Notes under the pieces: generated by a model
The model's input: the letters and a program-made list of their open reading frames with translations, nothing else
Databases searched by the model: none
Told to the model about the DNA's origin: nothing
Source: Prorocentrum cordatum
Taxonomy: Eukaryota
Assembly (NCBI GenBank): GCA_963575745.1
Contig: CAUYUJ010000115.1
Location: 186,001 to 250,000 of the forward strand
Direction: 5' to 3'
Length of the DNA stretch: 64,000 nt
Part shown: positions 1,186 to 40,200 of the stretch, piece after piece
How the letters are laid out: each line of letters opens with the position of its first letter
Position numbering within the stretch: the stretch's first letter is position 1
Made by a program: the position numbers and the translations under genes

Positions 1186-1290
1186 TGACGTCGGGCAGCA
1201 GCTTCGCCTCCCGCATCTCGCCCAGCAGCGCCAGAGCACGCTGCCACTGCCCCCCCTTCTCGCACGCGCTGATCCCAGCGCTGTAGCTGA
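1186..1290 (-). CDS. PPR cassette, 1 motif (105 bp)
   Basis: SYSAGISACEKGGQWQRALALLGEMREAKLLPDV. Confidence 0.85.
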
Positions 1291-37200: not shown

Positions 37201-40200
37201 TTGCCGGGATACTATATGTTTTCCCATCGGAATTTGACGATTTGTGCTTCTTTGGCGTGCGCTCGGGGCCCTCTTGGGGCGTCTTTGCAGCCTCTTGGAT
37301 CGTCGTCGAGCCCCCCCCCCGGAAAGCTTCGGGCCCTCGTGGGCCGTCGCGGGACCCACTGAGGCCGTCTTGGGGCGCTCTTGGACGGTCTGGGAACCCC
37401 TCTGGAGCGCCTCTGGGACCGGCCTGAGCGATTCGGCCCCGTGGTGGCGCCGTAAAGGGGCGATTTTGTCCACTTGAGGCCGTGGGCTTCTCGCACGCGC
37501 TTCCACCGGCCATGTAGGAGAGACTAGTGTGAACTCGTGGATTGCATCCACGGTGTGCTGAACCTGGGACTCGCACACCGTGGGTGAACAGCTCGTCGAA
37601 GCTGAGCAGTGGGGCCGTGTCGGTGGCATGTTGGGTCCTCGCGCAAGCCTGTCTGGGGCGTCTTGAAGGCCTCCTGCGGCTTGGGGGCCTCTGGGGCCGG
37701 TCCCGGGCTGTCACCGGGGACAGCCCGGGAAACTCATTGCGCGTGCGTGCCGTGAGGTTGCTATCAGGAGGTCCCCCGTGTCACCCCAGAGGTTAGCTGA
37801 AGGGCTTGCTGCAGGCTCCAGGAGCCGGGGCTGGAGGCTGTCTTCGAATATCCTGGGGGGGGTCTGCGCCACATCGGAGGGGTCCAGGGAGGGATCTTGT
37901 GGTCTTGGGGCTGTCTTGGGGGCCACCGAGGGCTCTACTCGGCCGCAGGGGGGAAGCGAAATACTGGTCCACGCAGTGTCTGCGCAGGCCTCCCCCCCTG
38001 TCACTCCTAATCGGCCGTAGAGGGGCAGCGACCGAAGTGGCTACAGGGCCCCCCTGTCACCACTAACAGGCAGTGGAGGCCCCAGAGCGGCCGGAGCCTC
38101 GACGAGAGAAGGAGGAAAAGATCCGAGGAGAAGGTCCTCCCTGTCACCCCTAATCGGCCGTAGGTGGGGAGGTCTTGAGGGCGACTCTGGGCCATCTCGG
38201 AGTGGTCCTGGGATCGCTCTTGGGAGCTCCGTGGGAACTATGGGAGTCTGTTCTGGGACCGCTCTTGGGAGCTCCGTAGGAATTGACGGAGTCTCTTGGC
38301 AAGCGTCGGAATCTTGTGGGCGACTCTGGGGCATCTCGGAGTGGCCCTGGGACCGCTCTTGCGAGCTGTGTGGGGACTATCGGGGTCTCTTGTGCGGCTC
38401 TGGGGCATCTCGGAGTGGTCTGGGGCCTGCGTTGGGGCTCTGGGGCTGTCTTTGGGACATGTGGAGTTCGAGAGACGGCGAAAGGGTGCCGTGGCTTGAG
38501 ACACTCTCTTTGGGAGCTCCGTGGGAACCACCGGAGTCTCTTGGGAGACTCTGGGGCATGTGGGAGTGGTCCTTGGAGGGTTTTTGGCCCATTGTGGGCT
38601 GCGGGAAGGGCGTCGTCTGGGCTCCCTTCGGCCTCTCTTCGAGCCCTCGTGGGGGTCTCTCCGAAGCATGTAGGGGCCTTTTGGCCCTTTTCGGAGCTTT
38701 CTGGGGCCGCCTCGGGGGGCTCTTGGGCCGTCCTGGGGCCATGCAGGGGGTCTTGGGCCGTCTTGGGCAGCTCCTGGGGCCCTCTTGGGCTGATCTTTAG
38801 GACCACCATGCGCTCTATGAGGCCGTCTTGGGCTTCTCCTGGGCAGTCTTCGGGCCCTCTGGGGCCGTCTTGGGGCATTTGGCGGGACCTCCTGGACCTT
38901 CTCTGGGGTGGCCCTGGAGCCGTCGGGGGCCGTTTTGGGGTTGGACGAGGTAGAGCATGGGACATCAGCCAACAAACTCTGTGAACAAATCAACTGTTGT
39001 AGCCTCGGGGGACCTTCATCGGGGTCTGGGTGGGCGGTCTTCGGAGGCAACTGGCCGGTCGACGGGCCGTCCTGGGCCGTCATGGAGCTCCGTCCGGGCT
39101 CTCTTTGGACGTCCTCGCGCCTTCTGGAGCGTCTCGGGGCGGTGTTCGAGCTGCCTGGGGCCATGGTGGAACCATCCGGGGGCTCTCTCGAGCCGTCAGA
39201 GAGCGGCGGGGCGCTCCGTGCGGTCGGGGGCAGCTGGCGCACTGCTGGCGCGACTCGCACGCGCAACGACCAGAACAGTAGTACAGATGACGTCGGGCTC
39301 CATTTTCGCCTCACACACCTCGCTCAGCAGCGCCAGAGCCCGCTGCCACTGCTCGCCTTTCCCGCACGCGCTGATCCCAGCGTTGTAGCTGACTAGGGCA
39401 GACCTGTGGACTCCGTCCACGACATCAGCTCGACGTGGCGAGGGGTCTCTGGGCAAGCGCGGGGGGGTGCGGCTGCAGGGCCGAAAGGCAATCATGATGG
39501 CGTCGGGCTCCTCCTCCTCCTCCTCCTCCTCCTCCTCCTCCTCCTCCTCCACCTTCTTCTCCTCTTTCGCTGGATTCTCCATGCCCTCGGTCGGCAATCG
39601 TCGATCCTACGACGACTCTCCCCAACAGAGAAACATCGAAGGCCCTCGGAGCGTCCAACATTGTTCTTTTGTGCCTTCGATATGCCGGTCGCCTCTCGTC
39701 CGCTCCCCCGCTCCTGGAAGGAATTCTGAAGGCACTGAAGGCTTCGTAGGGGCCGTTTCGGAGCCTCTTCGGCCTTCGTTTGGGCCTCGCGGGGGGGCTC
39801 TTAGGGCTCTCTCGGGCCGTCTTGGGTGCCTCTTGGGCCGTCTTCGGGCCATCTGAGGCCCTCCTTGGCGCCTCTTCGGCTGTCGTGGGCCGTCTTGGGC
39901 CGCTCCTGGGGCCGTCTTGGGTGCCTCTTGGGCCGTCTTGGGCGCCTCCTGGGCCGTCCGGACGCCGTCCTGCGGCGTCTTGGGACCGTCTTGGGGCCCT
40001 CCTGGCCCGTCTTGGGGCTCTCTTGGGGTCCTCTTCGGCCGTCTTGGAGCGGTCGGGGGGGCGTCTTGGGCCGTCTTGGAGCGTCGGAAAGCCGACGAGG
40101 CGAGGAGGCCAAAAACATTGAAAAACACAATAGAAATCGACGATTTCTGTCGCTCGGGGCCCTCTTGGGAGGCCTCTTGGGAGGCCTCTTCGGGCGTCTT

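What the first reader, a model, noticed from the sequence alone, without database searches (positions are those of the whole stretch)
1186..39392. One cassette equals one RNA-base recognition unit: a potentially shufflable PPR code array
Seen: each 105-bp unit runs from codon 2 of one motif to codon 1-2 of the next, so it holds both specificity residues (5 and 35) of one motif, and all cassettes share the same phase. All 13 motifs lack stops and indels, while the neighbouring LINE and ZnF sequences are full of them. The 5/35 pairs in transcript order are ND, SD, SN, ND, TS, ND, ND, SN, SD, ND, SN, ND, SD. Established plant P-type code: ND=U, SD=G, SN=A. This predicts roughly U-G-A-U-?-U-U-A-G-U-A-U-G. 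Inference: Helitron read-through, recombination between similar spacers or exon skipping could add, drop or reorder cassettes, giving a combinatorial way to make new sequence-specific RNA-binding proteins (for example for edited organellar RNAs).
Basis: partly seen in the sequence, partly recalled or inferred. Interest (0 to 1): 0.85.

Follow-up and report, generated by a model that had tools for sequence, protein, structure and literature searches.

The report
PPR repeats split by Helitron-like introns
A dinoflagellate gene for an RNA-binding repeat protein (PPR) has had its 35-residue repeats separated into one- to three-repeat pieces by copies of one rolling-circle-type mobile element, inserted at the same spot of the repeat and probably now acting as introns.

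Summary
There are 13 intact 35-residue PPR motifs on the minus strand between 1186 and 39392. All sit in the same register, and their 5/35 residue pairs are exactly as listed. They form 10 units, not 13 (two units hold 2 and 3 motifs). A first coding exon lies at 46425-46671. The motifs are SACEK-type P-class PPR repeats. Their nearest named proteins are Prorocentrum cordatum gene models.

The spacers carry the Helitron hallmarks: host A|TC at the 5' end, a 17-nt palindrome 12-13 nt before a 3' CTAG|T, no target duplication, and no inverted ends. All copies lie in one orientation. Removing them restores the uninterrupted junction seen between motifs 2 and 3.

GT/GC...AG splicing at the element ends would add one Phe codon. 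At least 23 P. cordatum gene models show that 'IFSY' junction. The cassettes look constrained: 14 of 14 are stop-free and dN/dS is about 0.45.

No RNA data or genome could be obtained, so splicing is inferred. Simple splice sites keep the frame at only 6 of 10 junctions. The 'shufflable code' idea is untested. Helitron-derived introners are already known, including one family in a dinoflagellate.

The parts
46425..46671 (-). First coding exon of the PPR gene. The ATG is at 46671. It encodes MLDIWRGSREGG... followed by two diverged PPR-like repeats ending ...EPNV + A.
   Evidence: 70% identity over 70 residues to the N-terminus of P. cordatum protein P0011. The same start peptide occurs in P0134 and P0140. 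nhmmer gives 44.3 bits at 46426-46525. ATG located.
39288..39392 (-). Cassette 1, one PPR motif (5/35 = ND).
   Evidence: 100.7 bits.
34287..34496 (-). Cassettes 2 and 3, two contiguous motifs (SD, SN). Their internal junction GACGTCA-TCAGCTAC is the 'empty site'.
   Evidence: Pfam PPR_2 43.3 bits against a cut-off of 30.
30121..30225 (-). Cassette 4 (ND).
   Evidence: 97.2 bits.
20231..20335 (-). Cassette 5 (TS). It is followed by an 11-nt stump of a further motif.
16066..16170 (-). Cassette 6 (ND).
13687..13791 (-). Cassette 7 (ND).
10338..10442 (-). Cassette 8 (SN).
7113..7427 (-). Cassettes 9-11, three contiguous motifs (SD, ND, SN).
   Evidence: Pfam PPR_2 50.9 bits against a cut-off of 30. 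AlphaFold2 model with pLDDT 85.5 shows six helices. Foldseek TM 0.85-0.90 to designer PPR proteins.
3291..3395 (-). Cassette 12 (ND).
1186..1290 (-). Cassette 13 (SD).
39393..46424 (-). Spacer between the first exon and cassette 1. It holds at least four Helitron-like copies head to tail, with junctions (3' end | 5' end) at 45674|45673, 43468|43467 and 41175|41174.
   Evidence: The 5' consensus TCYMTAYTAM matches at 46424, 43467 and 41174.
34497..39287 (-). Spacer 1->2. The 5' end is TCTGTACTAC (39287). There is an internal junction CTAG|TCTCTCCTAC at 37524|37523. The 3' end has a palindrome followed by CTAT.
30226..34286 (-). Spacer 3->4. The 5' end is changed to AG|GTGTACCAC and the 3' terminus is lost, with ...TCTCAG| usable as an acceptor.
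20336..30120 (-). Spacer 4->5 (9.8 kb). The 5' end is TCTGCGATGC. There is a relic junction near 21473|21467. The 3' end has a palindrome followed by CTAG.
16171..20230 (-). Spacer 5->6. It has an internal junction GTAG|TCTATATTAT at 18899|18892 and a further pseudo-head at 18124. The 3' end has a palindrome followed by TTAG.
13792..16065 (-). Spacer 6->7. The 5' end is AG|GTATAT and the 3' end is ...GCAG.
   Evidence: Its 3' part is 80-93% identical to that of spacer 11->12.
10443..13686 (-). Spacer 7->8. The 5' end is TCTGTACTAC. There is an internal junction CGAG|TCTGTACTGC at 12670|12669. The 3' end has a palindrome followed by CTGG.
7428..10337 (-). Spacer 8->9. The 5' end is TCTGTAGTAC. 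It contains a relic of a PPR tail (10195-10227) followed by another TCTGTAC head. The 3' end is CTAG.
3396..7112 (-). Spacer 11->12. The 5' end is TCTGTACTAC and the 3' end is ...CCAG. It contains a 328-bp tandem repeat.
1291..3290 (-). Spacer 12->13 (2.0 kb). The 5' end is TATGCACTAC. The 3' end has a palindrome GTGG..CCAC followed by CCAG.
504..1185 (-). The smallest complete copy (682 bp). It runs from CCTGTACCAC... through the GTGGACGGAGTCCAC palindrome to ...CAGCCCTAG.
1..503 (-). Start of the next copy (TCTTCTCTACAATGCAGGG...), abutting the previous CTAG. The array runs off the window.
39406..39420 (-). Example of the subterminal palindrome (GTGGAC-gga-GTCCAC), which ends 13 nt before the element's last base.

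Best explanation
Shown:
- The window holds the 5' part of a SACEK-type P-class PPR gene on the minus strand, with its start codon at 46671.
- The repeat array is interrupted at one fixed point of the repeat, between the A and the T of the codon-2 triplet in ...GAC GTC A|TC AGC TAC....
- The interrupting sequences are 0.7-10 kb spacers made of one family of non-autonomous elements, all in the same orientation as the gene.
- These elements have the structure of Helitrons: a 5' TC terminus matching the classical TCTCTACTAC-type end, a 3' CTAG, a 7+3+7 palindrome 12-13 nt before the 3' end, flanking host A and T, no target duplication, and no inverted ends.
- Several spacers hold two to four copies joined precisely CTAG|TC.

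Inferred:
- The elements inserted into a once continuous array. The first 40-55 nt of the element resemble the head of the PPR repeat, and each insertion recreates an A|TC site. The same site can therefore be hit again, which would give head-to-tail stacks.
- The elements are now removed as introns. They would use a GT or GC three bases inside their 5' end (TCT|GTAC) and the AG of their terminal CTAG.
- This splicing leaves one extra codon, so repeats join as ...P-D-V-I-F-S-Y-N....
- The encoded protein would be an organellar RNA-binding PPR protein reading one base per repeat.
- This copy may be partly decayed, because not all junctions can be joined in frame by these simple sites.
- The exon-per-repeat layout is a consequence of the insertion site, not a dedicated shuffling device.
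For: PPR identity:
- Pfam PPR_2 scores 50.9 and 43.3 bits (cut-off 30) for the two multi-motif ORFs. PPR families were hit in 9 of 10 cassette ORFs at E<=0.1.
- A profile of 41 in-register triplets matches dPPR-U10 at E=7e-213.
- The AlphaFold2 model has pLDDT 85.5, and Foldseek gives TM 0.85-0.90 and rmsd 1.6-1.7 A to designer PPRs.
- 9 of 13 motifs carry SACEK, 3 SACGK and 1 SACQK. SACEK-PPRs are described as abundant in P. cordatum (PMC12787238, passages read).

Gene context:
- The first exon is 70% identical to the N-terminus of P0011.
- 105 of the 120 listed near-length hits are NCBI P. cordatum proteins.
- Spacer lengths of 0.7-9.8 kb fit that species' mean intron length of 4709 bp (PMC10666404, Table 2 passage).

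Element termini:
- 9 of 11 cassette-adjacent 5' ends are variants of TCTGTACTAC.
- 3' ends are CTAG or CTGG in 8 of 18 copies and one base away from that in 9 more.
- Palindrome cells are 86% paired, against 27-46% when the pairing is slid.
- The hairpins fold at -6.3 to -7.2 kcal/mol, z -1.2 to -3.0.
- The maize Helitron 5' consensus TC[TC][CA]TA[CT]TA[CA] (PMC2267711, passages) has 3 matches in the window against 0.19 expected. The relaxed form has 6 against 0.68. All lie exactly at predicted 5' ends.
- 16 of 17 hits to a 3'-end profile and 32 of 32 hits to a 5'-end profile are on the minus strand. None lies beyond 46.5 kb.

Empty site:
- The uninterrupted junction between motifs 2 and 3 reads GACGTCA-TCAGCTAC.
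- In other dinoflagellate contigs the same repeats run uninterrupted for up to 23 units.
- The same termini flank cassettes in 3 Prorocentrum-like metagenome contigs, L022, L051 and L064, and in 11 short ENA contig ORFs.

Splicing (indirect only):
- At least 23 of 35 '+1 residue' junctions in the fetched proteins read IFS[YF]. All are in P. cordatum gene models. Every contiguous junction in the unspliced ENA ORFs is of the 35-residue type.
- GT/GC sits at element position 4-5 (or AG|GT at the boundary) in 9 of 11 cassette-adjacent heads, against 1 of 9 internal heads (Fisher p=0.0055).

Constraint:
- 14 of 14 full-length copies are intact.
- Mean dN is 0.184 and mean dS 0.409, with dN<dS in 73 of 78 pairs. 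In simulation, all 13 stayed stop-free in 0.26% of trials.
Against: - There is no RNA evidence: no run was listed, and no genome is held.
- With termini-proximal GT/GC...AG sites, only 6 of 10 inter-cassette junctions stay in frame (3->4, 4->5, 6->7, 8->9, 11->12, 12->13). Junction 5->6 needs a GA donor. Junctions 1->2 and 7->8, and first exon->1, cannot be joined this way (hand analysis).
- At 6->7 a nearer AG would break the frame.
- Acceptors here are not followed by G, whereas 79.7% of P. cordatum acceptors are AGG.
- No RepHel, helicase or any transposase domain was found in 97 long ORFs, so the Helitron assignment rests on structure alone.
- Many termini are degenerate.
- Covariation in the palindrome is weak: 2 compensatory pairs, and 105 of 500 shuffles reach the observed score.
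- The 2-nt TC repeat at both borders makes the exact boundary a matter of choice.
- The PPR-like 5' region of the element could also be read as a decayed repeat head.
- The difference in GT/GC between cassette-adjacent and internal heads may reflect subfamilies rather than selection.
- 'IFSY' junctions come from gene models, which may simply reflect a gene predictor choosing GT...AG.
- The dN/dS among cassettes largely reflects history before any insertion.
Confidence: 0.55

Rival explanations
1. These are ordinary spliceosomal introns, not mobile elements. One ancestral intron arose at the repeat boundary. Exon-plus-intron modules were then multiplied by unequal crossing-over and gene duplication. 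The conserved intron ends are splice signals and shared ancestry. Junctions without a cassette arose by recombination between a cassette head and the similar pseudo-head downstream.
For: - All copies share the gene's orientation and lie only inside the gene.
- Spacers are mosaics of shared segments at 66-93% identity.
- The element's first 40-55 nt look like a PPR head, as expected if it was once coding sequence.
- No transposase was found.
- PPR genes lie in tandemly duplicated blocks in dinoflagellates (PMC12787238, passage).
Against: - Uninterrupted junctions differ from interrupted ones by exactly the TC...CTAG segment, not by the GT...AG segment. Intron loss through cDNA would leave the extra Phe codon, which none of the contiguous junctions read shows.
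- The termini match an independent Helitron definition, including the maize 5' consensus.
- The palindrome sits at the Helitron distance from the 3' end.
- Precise CTAG|TC stacks are a described Helitron behaviour (PMC2267711).
Confidence: 0.2
2. The locus is a dead PPR paralogue (or PPR fragments riding in a Helitron array) that is not spliced into a working mRNA. The cassettes look intact because they are young copies or are homogenised by gene conversion from working paralogues.
For: - 3-4 of the junctions cannot be joined in frame with simple sites.
- Many P. cordatum models of this family contain frame-shifted repeat readings.
- No transcript-derived close relative appeared among the 360 rows listed by the three searches (140 distinct proteins); only genome models and unnamed short contigs did.
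- More than 100 similar loci exist, so redundancy is high.
Against: - 14 of 14 full-length copies are free of stops and indels. The PPR-derived pseudo-heads next to them are full of substitutions and indels.
- The distribution of copies is bimodal (13 copies at 90 bits or more, 1 at 44.3 bits and the fragments at 15.6 bits or less) with no continuum of decay.
- dN<dS in 73 of 78 pairs.
- A conserved first exon with a start codon is present.
Confidence: 0.15
3. One reading: the cassette array is a combinatorial system in which Helitron read-through, recombination or regulated exon skipping adds, drops or reorders single-base recognition units to make new RNA-binding specificities.
For: - The units are phase-symmetric and separated by homologous, co-oriented spacers, so in-frame gain or loss by unequal recombination or skipping is mechanically possible.
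- The number of repeats between elements varies from 0 to at least 5 among loci.
- The four canonical code pairs SN, SD, ND and NN make up 203 of 279 distinct motifs in the fetched proteins.
Against: - No transcript, allele or strain comparison was possible.
- Positions 5 and 35 are not the most variable (ranks 10 and 12 of 35).
- Nothing distinguishes purposeful shuffling from the ordinary birth-and-death turnover of a large repeat gene family.
- Uninterrupted arrays of the same repeats work without cassettes in other dinoflagellates.
Confidence: 0.07

Closest known systems
Helitron-derived introners (Gozashti et al. 2025, PMC12130899; e.g. Polarella glacialis fam15 and fungal families in its dataset sd07)
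   Same: Non-autonomous rolling-circle-type elements that sit in genes as introns, without target duplications. In the dinoflagellate family the donors are gt/gc and the acceptors ag, and the 3' splice site is carried by the element end (rows read).
   Different: - Here every copy seen sits at one position of one protein repeat.
- The element's 5' region mimics that repeat.
- Copies stack head to tail at the same site.
- Splicing is not shown.
- Prorocentrum does not occur in the 12 of 14 supplementary files that could be searched. The introner survey of P. cordatum looked only for inverted-repeat types (PMC10666404 methods passage).
Classical non-autonomous Helitrons (maize HelA/Hel1 type; Du et al. 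2008, PMC2267711)
   Same: 5' TC and 3' CTAG termini, a 16-20-bp palindrome 10-15 bp before the 3' end, and flanking host A and T. The 5' consensus TC[TC][CA]TA[CT]TA[CA] is matched by TCTCTACTAC and TCTATATTAC here. Head-to-tail insertion next to an existing copy also occurs (passages read; window data).
   Different: No RepHel-bearing partner is known for this family, the host lineage is far removed, the interior is filled with a G+C-rich 10/21-bp minisatellite, and the insertion site is strongly specific.
SACEK-type P-class PPR proteins of core dinoflagellates (review PMC12787238)
   Same: 35-residue repeats with Ser-Ala-Cys-Glu-Lys at positions 9-13 and a conserved Trp, in long arrays of near-identical repeats. 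They are abundant in P. cordatum.
   Different: In the other dinoflagellate contigs fetched, the arrays are continuous (up to 23 repeats). Here they are cut into units of 1-3 repeats.
Designer and natural P-class PPR proteins with solved RNA complexes (dPPR-U10 5i9f, PPR10 4m57/4m59)
   Same: Same fold and register. Residues 5 and 35 align with the base-specifying residues.
   Different: RNA binding, target and organelle location of the window's protein are untested. Spliced joins would add one residue between repeats.

Membership tests
P-class pentatricopeptide repeat (PPR) protein, SACEK subtype | Tandem ~35-residue repeats recognised by curated PPR profiles. | tested here: met
   Pfam PPR_2 scores 50.9 and 43.3 bits (cut-off 30) for the 3- and 2-motif ORFs. 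Single-motif ORFs mostly fall below the cut-off, and 1 of 10 had no hit. PDB profile search gives E=7e-213 to dPPR-U10.
P-class pentatricopeptide repeat (PPR) protein, SACEK subtype | Helix-turn-helix hairpins stacked into an alpha-solenoid. | tested here: met
   AlphaFold2 on 41 aligned triplets gives pLDDT 85.5 and six helices. Foldseek TM 0.85-0.90, rmsd 1.6-1.7 A to designer PPRs; PPR10 TM 0.84. The model covers only the 3 contiguous motifs.
P-class pentatricopeptide repeat (PPR) protein, SACEK subtype | Base-specifying residues at positions 5 and 35 in canonical combinations. | tested here: met
   The register is fixed by alignment to 5i9f. 12 of 13 pairs are ND, SD or SN. The letter assignment is recalled from the published code.
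P-class pentatricopeptide repeat (PPR) protein, SACEK subtype | SACEK at positions 9-13. | tested here: met
   SACEK in 9 of 13 motifs, SACGK in 3, SACQK in 1. Motif definition from PMC12787238.
P-class pentatricopeptide repeat (PPR) protein, SACEK subtype | All repeats joined in one polypeptide that binds a specific RNA in an organelle. | not testable with these tools
   No RNA run was listed and no genome is held. No binding test is possible.
Helitron (non-autonomous) | 5' TC and 3' CTRR termini. | tested here: met
   - 5' ends: TC in 7 of 12 ends that follow a PPR tail. The other five are the homologous CC/GG/TA variants (c3, c6, c12, c13) and c5's truncated motif stump. TC is present in most stacked heads.
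- 3' ends: CTAG or CTGG in 8 of 18, one base off in 9 of 18.
- The maize 5' consensus has 3 hits against 0.19 expected.
Helitron (non-autonomous) | A 16-20-bp palindrome 10-15 bp before the 3' end. | tested here: met
   A 7+3+7 palindrome ends 12-13 nt from the terminus. 86% of cells are paired in 16 copies. DNA folds give -6.3 to -7.2 kcal/mol. Compensatory support is weak (2 pairs).
Helitron (non-autonomous) | Insertion between host A and T without target duplication; no terminal inverted repeats. | tested here: met
   Flanks are ...GTCA| and |TCAGC.... Removal gives the junction seen between motifs 2 and 3. The 2-nt TC ambiguity is noted. No inverted ends were seen on reading the termini.
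Helitron (non-autonomous) | A RepHel-encoding autonomous partner with the same termini. | tested here: not met
   No Rep, helicase or other domain was found in 97 ORFs of 170 aa or more. The genome could not be searched. The assignment is therefore 'Helitron-like'.
Helitron (non-autonomous) | Demonstrated mobility (filled versus empty orthologous sites). | tested here: inconclusive
   Only paralogue-level hints exist. P0011 and P0140 continue from the first exon straight into repeats. The window and P0134 have an element there.
Introner (transposon-derived spliceosomal intron) | Many related copies forming introns. | tested here: inconclusive
   At least 17 copies lie in this gene, and the same ends occur in 3 metagenome contigs and 11 ENA ORFs. 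All are in PPR context, and none is shown to be an intron by RNA.
Introner (transposon-derived spliceosomal intron) | Splice sites supplied at or next to the element ends; spliced in transcripts. | not testable with these tools
   GT/GC is present at position 4-5 in 9 of 11 cassette-adjacent heads, and a terminal AG in 7 of 10 cassette-adjacent 3' ends. The 'IFSY' footprint occurs in at least 23 gene-model junctions. No reads were available.

The most novel reading that the evidence does not exclude
A Helitron-like element family whose 5' end mimics the first bases of the SACEK-PPR repeat homes to the A|T at the repeat boundary. By hitting successive repeats, and re-hitting the site it recreates, it has converted continuous PPR arrays of a Prorocentrum-type genome into same-phase, one-repeat exons across a family of hundreds of genes. 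It is spliced out with a one-codon (Phe) scar. This would be a case of a mobile element creating an exon-per-repeat architecture from scratch. It would also make in-frame gain, loss or exchange of single base-recognition units by recombination between homologous introns easy.
Probability: 0.3. Interest if true: 0.8.

Novelty: new variant of a known kind. Interest (0 to 1): 0.55.

Why it matters
How introns arise, and why exon borders so often coincide with protein repeat borders, are old questions. Here the border coincidence appears to come from the insertion preference of a rolling-circle element for a sequence that recurs once per repeat. If RNA data confirm splicing, the locus and its many paralogues offer three things:
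- a natural series of filled, stacked and empty sites for studying intron gain by Helitron-like elements in a dinoflagellate;
- a site-specific Helitron target, which is unusual;
- an explanation for the many frame-broken PPR gene models in that genome, which would help re-annotate a family of several hundred genes.

It also gives a concrete, testable footprint, the extra Phe in ...DVIFSY.... For PPR biology it shows that one-residue-longer joins may be tolerated in a P-class array. If RNA data show no splicing, the result is still useful: it marks these 'PPR genes' as element-riddled relics.

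Tried and rejected
- **Whole genome:** none is held.
- **RNA evidence:** no RNA holder was listed for window 1000-10999.
- **Earlier notes of this scan:** nothing by place, sequence or words.
- **Transposase, reverse transcriptase or zinc-finger domains:** none in 97 ORFs of 170 aa or more (97 of 163 such ORFs were scanned) or in 47 of 68 ORFs of 75 aa or more in 23-30.1 kb.
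- **Hairpin covariation:** not significant. There were 2 compensatory pairs, and 105 of 500 shuffles reached the observed score.
- **Search aimed at transcript-derived proteins with the IFSY junction** (P0193 residues 62-127): it returned only P. cordatum genome models, a few unnamed ENA contigs and one JGI entry.
- **AlphaFold2 of P0125 without an alignment**, meant to look at a 36-residue join: too poor to use (pLDDT 44.3). Whether the extra Phe fits the solenoid is untested.
- **Splice sites:** a hand search for sites that join every cassette in frame failed for first exon->1, 1->2 and 7->8. Longer-range site combinations exist but are arbitrary without reads.
- **Hypervariability of residues 5 and 35:** not seen.
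- **The 3' element end as a decayed PPR tail:** rejected. The cassette profile finds no tail-like match upstream of any cassette.
- **A TIR transposon with a 2-bp TC duplication:** rejected. The ends are not inverted repeats.
- **Rfam and tRNA scans:** empty.
- **Long antisense ORF 4441-6600:** no Pfam hit and 0 relatives among 1.84 billion representatives, so it is treated as a chance ORF.

Full report
**What is there.** The window is G+C-rich: 0.58-0.67 up to 46 kb and 0.52-0.64 beyond. It is packed with short tandem repeats. A six-frame pattern scan found 13 copies of a 35-residue motif of the type VSYNAGISACEKGEQWQRALALLSEMREAKLEPDV. All are on the minus strand between 1187 and 39393. The scan also gave three unrelated hits. 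A nucleotide profile built from the 13 copies was run over both strands. It recovers the 13 at 90.5-103.4 bits and one diverged full-length copy at 46426-46525 (44.3 bits). Otherwise it finds only short fragments of 15.6 bits or less. None of the 14 full-length copies has a stop or an indel. The 13 motifs form 10 units: eight single motifs, one pair (34.3 kb) and one triplet (7.1-7.4 kb).

**What the motifs are.** Pfam places the pair and the triplet in the PPR families above the curated cut-offs. Single-motif ORFs mostly fall below them, and one of ten gave no hit. A profile of 41 in-register triplets (the window's plus 40 from fetched loci) matches designer P-class PPR proteins in the PDB at E=7e-213 and PPR10 at 8e-97. 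The pairwise alignment to dPPR-U10 puts the window's N/S/T on its residue 5 and D/N/S on its residue 35. An AlphaFold2 model of the triplet has pLDDT 85.5 and pTM 0.79. It shows six helices and superposes on designer PPRs with TM 0.85-0.90. Nine of the 13 motifs carry SACEK at positions 9-13. This is the hallmark of a PPR subtype that a recent review describes as abundant in Prorocentrum cordatum, Polarella and Alexandrium (PMC12787238, passages read).

The nearest proteins are P. cordatum gene models, at up to 71-74% identity over the triplet. 105 of the 120 listed near-length hits carry that name, and 15 are unnamed ENA contigs. No 100% match was listed.

**The gene.** At 46425-46671 (minus strand) an ORF starts with ATG and reads MLDIWRGSREGG..., followed by two diverged PPR-like repeats. 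It is 70% identical over 70 residues to the N-terminus of P0011. It shares its start peptide with P0134 and P0140. The cassettes therefore lie downstream of a family-typical first exon. The array runs off the low end of the window.

**The spacers.** Each unit is followed by ...GAC GTC A and then a variant of TCTGTACTAC. Each unit is preceded by a palindrome (typically GTGGAC-gga-GTCCAC), 8-9 further bases and CTAG, then TC AGC TAC. Profiles of these two ends find 16 of 17 3' ends and 32 of 32 5' heads on the minus strand, and none beyond 46.5 kb. Of the 32 heads, 13 are the cassettes' own heads and 19 are 'pseudo-heads'. In at least eight places a 3' end abuts a 5' head directly, for example CCCTAG|TCTCTACTAC at 41175|41174 and 43468|43467. 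Several spacers are therefore stacks of two to four copies. The smallest complete copy is 682 bp (504-1185). Spacers share segments at 66-93% identity in the same order and orientation, but they are mosaics.

No protein domain was found in 97 long ORFs (97 of 163 ORFs of 170 aa or more were scanned) or in 47 ORFs of the 9.8-kb spacer.

**Why I call them Helitron-like.** A maize study lists the basic Helitron features (PMC2267711, passages read):
- TC and CTAG termini;
- a 16-20-bp palindrome 10-15 bp before the 3' end;
- flanking host A and T;
- a 5' search consensus TC[TC][CA]TA[CT]TA[CA]...;

All of these are seen here.
- That consensus has 3 matches in the window against 0.19 expected. A relaxed form has 6 against 0.68. 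All lie exactly at predicted 5' ends.
- The palindromes fold as 6-7-bp stems with 3-nt loops ending 12-13 nt from the terminus, at -6.3 to -7.2 kcal/mol.
- Across 16 copies, 86% of stem cells pair, against 27-46% for slid controls. However, only two pairs show a compensatory change, and that is not significant.
- The ends are not inverted repeats, and there is no target duplication beyond a 2-nt TC ambiguity.

Cutting out TC...CTAG restores GACGTCA-TCAGCTAC, which is literally the junction between motifs 2 and 3. Many termini are degenerate: CTAG or CTGG in 8 of 18 3' ends, and one base off in 9 more. The family is therefore old.

No RepHel partner was found, and the genome could not be searched. 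The name thus rests on structure alone.

**The odd 5' end.** The first 40-55 nt of the element resemble the head of the PPR repeat. The cassette profile hits pseudo-heads at E=6e-4 to 0.03, and the 5'-end profile hits all 13 cassette heads. In effect the repeat head TC-AG-CTACAA... reads TC-TCTA-CTACAA... in the element. I infer that the element's 5' end derives from, or mimics, its target. This would explain insertion at the same point of successive repeats, and re-insertion at the A|TC that each copy recreates. This is inference. The same resemblance can be read as a decayed repeat head under the duplication rival.

**Elsewhere.** One scan of metagenome contigs gave 65 loci. In most, including contigs of 42-53% and of 62-64% G+C, the homologous repeats run on without interruption. 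Examples are 23 consecutive hits in L001 and 19 in L005 and L006. Three contigs with 63-66% G+C and near-identical repeats (L022, L051, L064) show the same termini around one or two repeats. Eleven short ENA-contig ORFs show the translated palindrome region (…VD.VHGSAL, …CQPWIFHGFTL) before, and the translated 5' end (ICT…, IYTT…, ISPT…) after, blocks of 2-4 repeats. The arrangement is thus genome-wide in Prorocentrum-like genomes and absent from the other dinoflagellate loci fetched.

**Are the elements introns?** This is not shown. No sequencing run was listed for the window. The indirect points are as follows.
1. The spacer sizes fit the 4.7-kb mean intron length of P. cordatum, whose donors are GT 24.7%, GC 51.4% and GA 23.8% (PMC10666404, Table 2 passage).
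2. A donor at TCT|GT(GC) and the AG of the terminal CTAG would join ...GTC ATC T + TC AGC..., that is ...D-V-I-F-S-Y.... Among the 240 proteins then fetched, a pattern count gave 229 exact 35-residue joins and 35 joins one residue longer. At least 23 of the longer joins read IFS[YF], and all of those are in P. cordatum gene models. The contiguous joins in the unspliced ENA ORFs are all of the 35-residue type. Gene models are predictions, so this shows only that annotators' pipelines used these sites.
3. GT/GC (or AG|GT) is present in 9 of 11 cassette-adjacent heads, against 1 of 9 internal heads (p=0.0055). Subfamily structure could confound this.

Against splicing:
- With such sites only 6 of 10 inter-cassette junctions keep the frame.
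- One junction needs a GA donor, and three (first exon->1, 1->2, 7->8) fail.
- At 6->7 the nearer AG would break the frame.
- The acceptors lack the usual following G.

This copy may therefore be partly decayed.

**Constraint on the cassettes.** Pairwise nucleotide identity is 71-90% (mean 81%). Mean dN is 0.184 and mean dS 0.409, with dN<dS in 73 of 78 pairs. I also placed the observed numbers of changes at random on the consensus. On average 8.3 of 13 copies then stayed stop-free, and all 13 did so in 0.26% of 20,000 trials. Because the profile search is frame-blind, the intactness is not an ascertainment artefact. Much of the divergence among cassettes predates any insertion, so this argues for a functional history more than for present function. 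Positions 5 and 35 vary (ranks 10 and 12 of 35 by entropy) but are not the most variable. In 279 distinct motifs from the fetched proteins, the four canonical pairs SN, SD, ND and NN account for 203.

**Comparison with what is known.** Introners are established, and dinoflagellates are rich in them. A 2025 survey classifies about 1% of categorised introner families as Helitrons. [quoted passage not shown] 'Prorocentrum' does not occur in the 12 of 14 supplementary files that could be searched. The P. cordatum genome paper searched only for introners with inverted and direct repeats at intron ends. A full-text search for dinoflagellate + Helitron + intron gave 24 papers. None of the 15 listed is, by title or abstract start, about PPR genes. 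I therefore rate the finding as a new variant of a known kind: a Helitron-like, probably intron-forming family with a repeat-specific site.

The step from 'same-phase cassettes' to 'a combinatorial device' has no support yet. The layout makes in-frame gain and loss possible, and the number of repeats between elements does vary among loci. That is also what ordinary turnover of a large repeat family would give.

**Limits.**
- There is no genome and no reads, and protein searches were capped.
- All statements about P. cordatum rest on names given by the sources of database proteins and on three papers, read in passages rather than in full.
- The code letters (ND=U, SD=G, SN=A) and the general statement that Helitrons use rolling-circle RepHel enzymes are recalled, not tested here.

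Noticed in passing
window 4441-6600 (+): A 720-residue open frame antisense to the PPR gene, inside the spacer between cassettes 11 and 12. It has no Pfam family and 0 relatives among 1.84 billion representative proteins. It is most likely a chance ORF of G+C-rich DNA.
   Followed up: yes
window 1-46000, e.g. 39798-40995, 42090-43089, 44441-46 (+ strand unit TCTTGGGCCG): A 10/21-bp G+C-rich minisatellite fills much of every spacer. It recurs in the Prorocentrum-like metagenome contigs L051 and L064, so it seems to be part of the element family's interior.
   Followed up: partly
window 39867-40995 and 3829-4646: Long tandem repeats inside spacers: 375 bp x 3.0 at 97% identity, and 328 bp x 2.5 at 89%. 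These indicate recent local duplication within old elements.
   Followed up: no
window 10195-10227 (-): An isolated relic of the last 33 nt of a PPR repeat (…EMWEAKLRSNV) sits after a (GAG)n run. It is followed directly by another TCTGTAC element head, and looks like the remains of a lost cassette.
   Followed up: partly
window 46000-64000: Upstream of the gene start, G+C falls to 0.52-0.60 and none of the element ends or PPR motifs occur. Only low-complexity Pfam matches (PT repeat, extensin-like) were seen in long ORFs there.
   Followed up: no
proteins P0011, P0039, P0085, P0117 and others (P. cordatum gene models): Many models of this family contain stretches such as LQRWDQRVREGRAVAAG or TTLGSARARRAGSGS. 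These are PPR repeats read in the wrong frame, which suggests widespread mis-joined exons or decayed copies in the annotation.
   Followed up: partly
locus L002 (1018 bases, 63% G+C): A contig with four intact near-identical repeats in a row and then frame-shifted ones. It resembles the C-terminal part of P0068. Uninterrupted blocks of four or more repeats therefore also exist in Prorocentrum-like DNA.
   Followed up: no
window 7218/7217, 7323/7322 and 34392/34391: Of the three uninterrupted repeat junctions, only one (motifs 2|3) has the exact target GTCA|TCAGC. The other two read GTGA|TTGC and GTCG|TCAGC. The numbers are too small to say whether altered sites escaped insertion.
   Followed up: no
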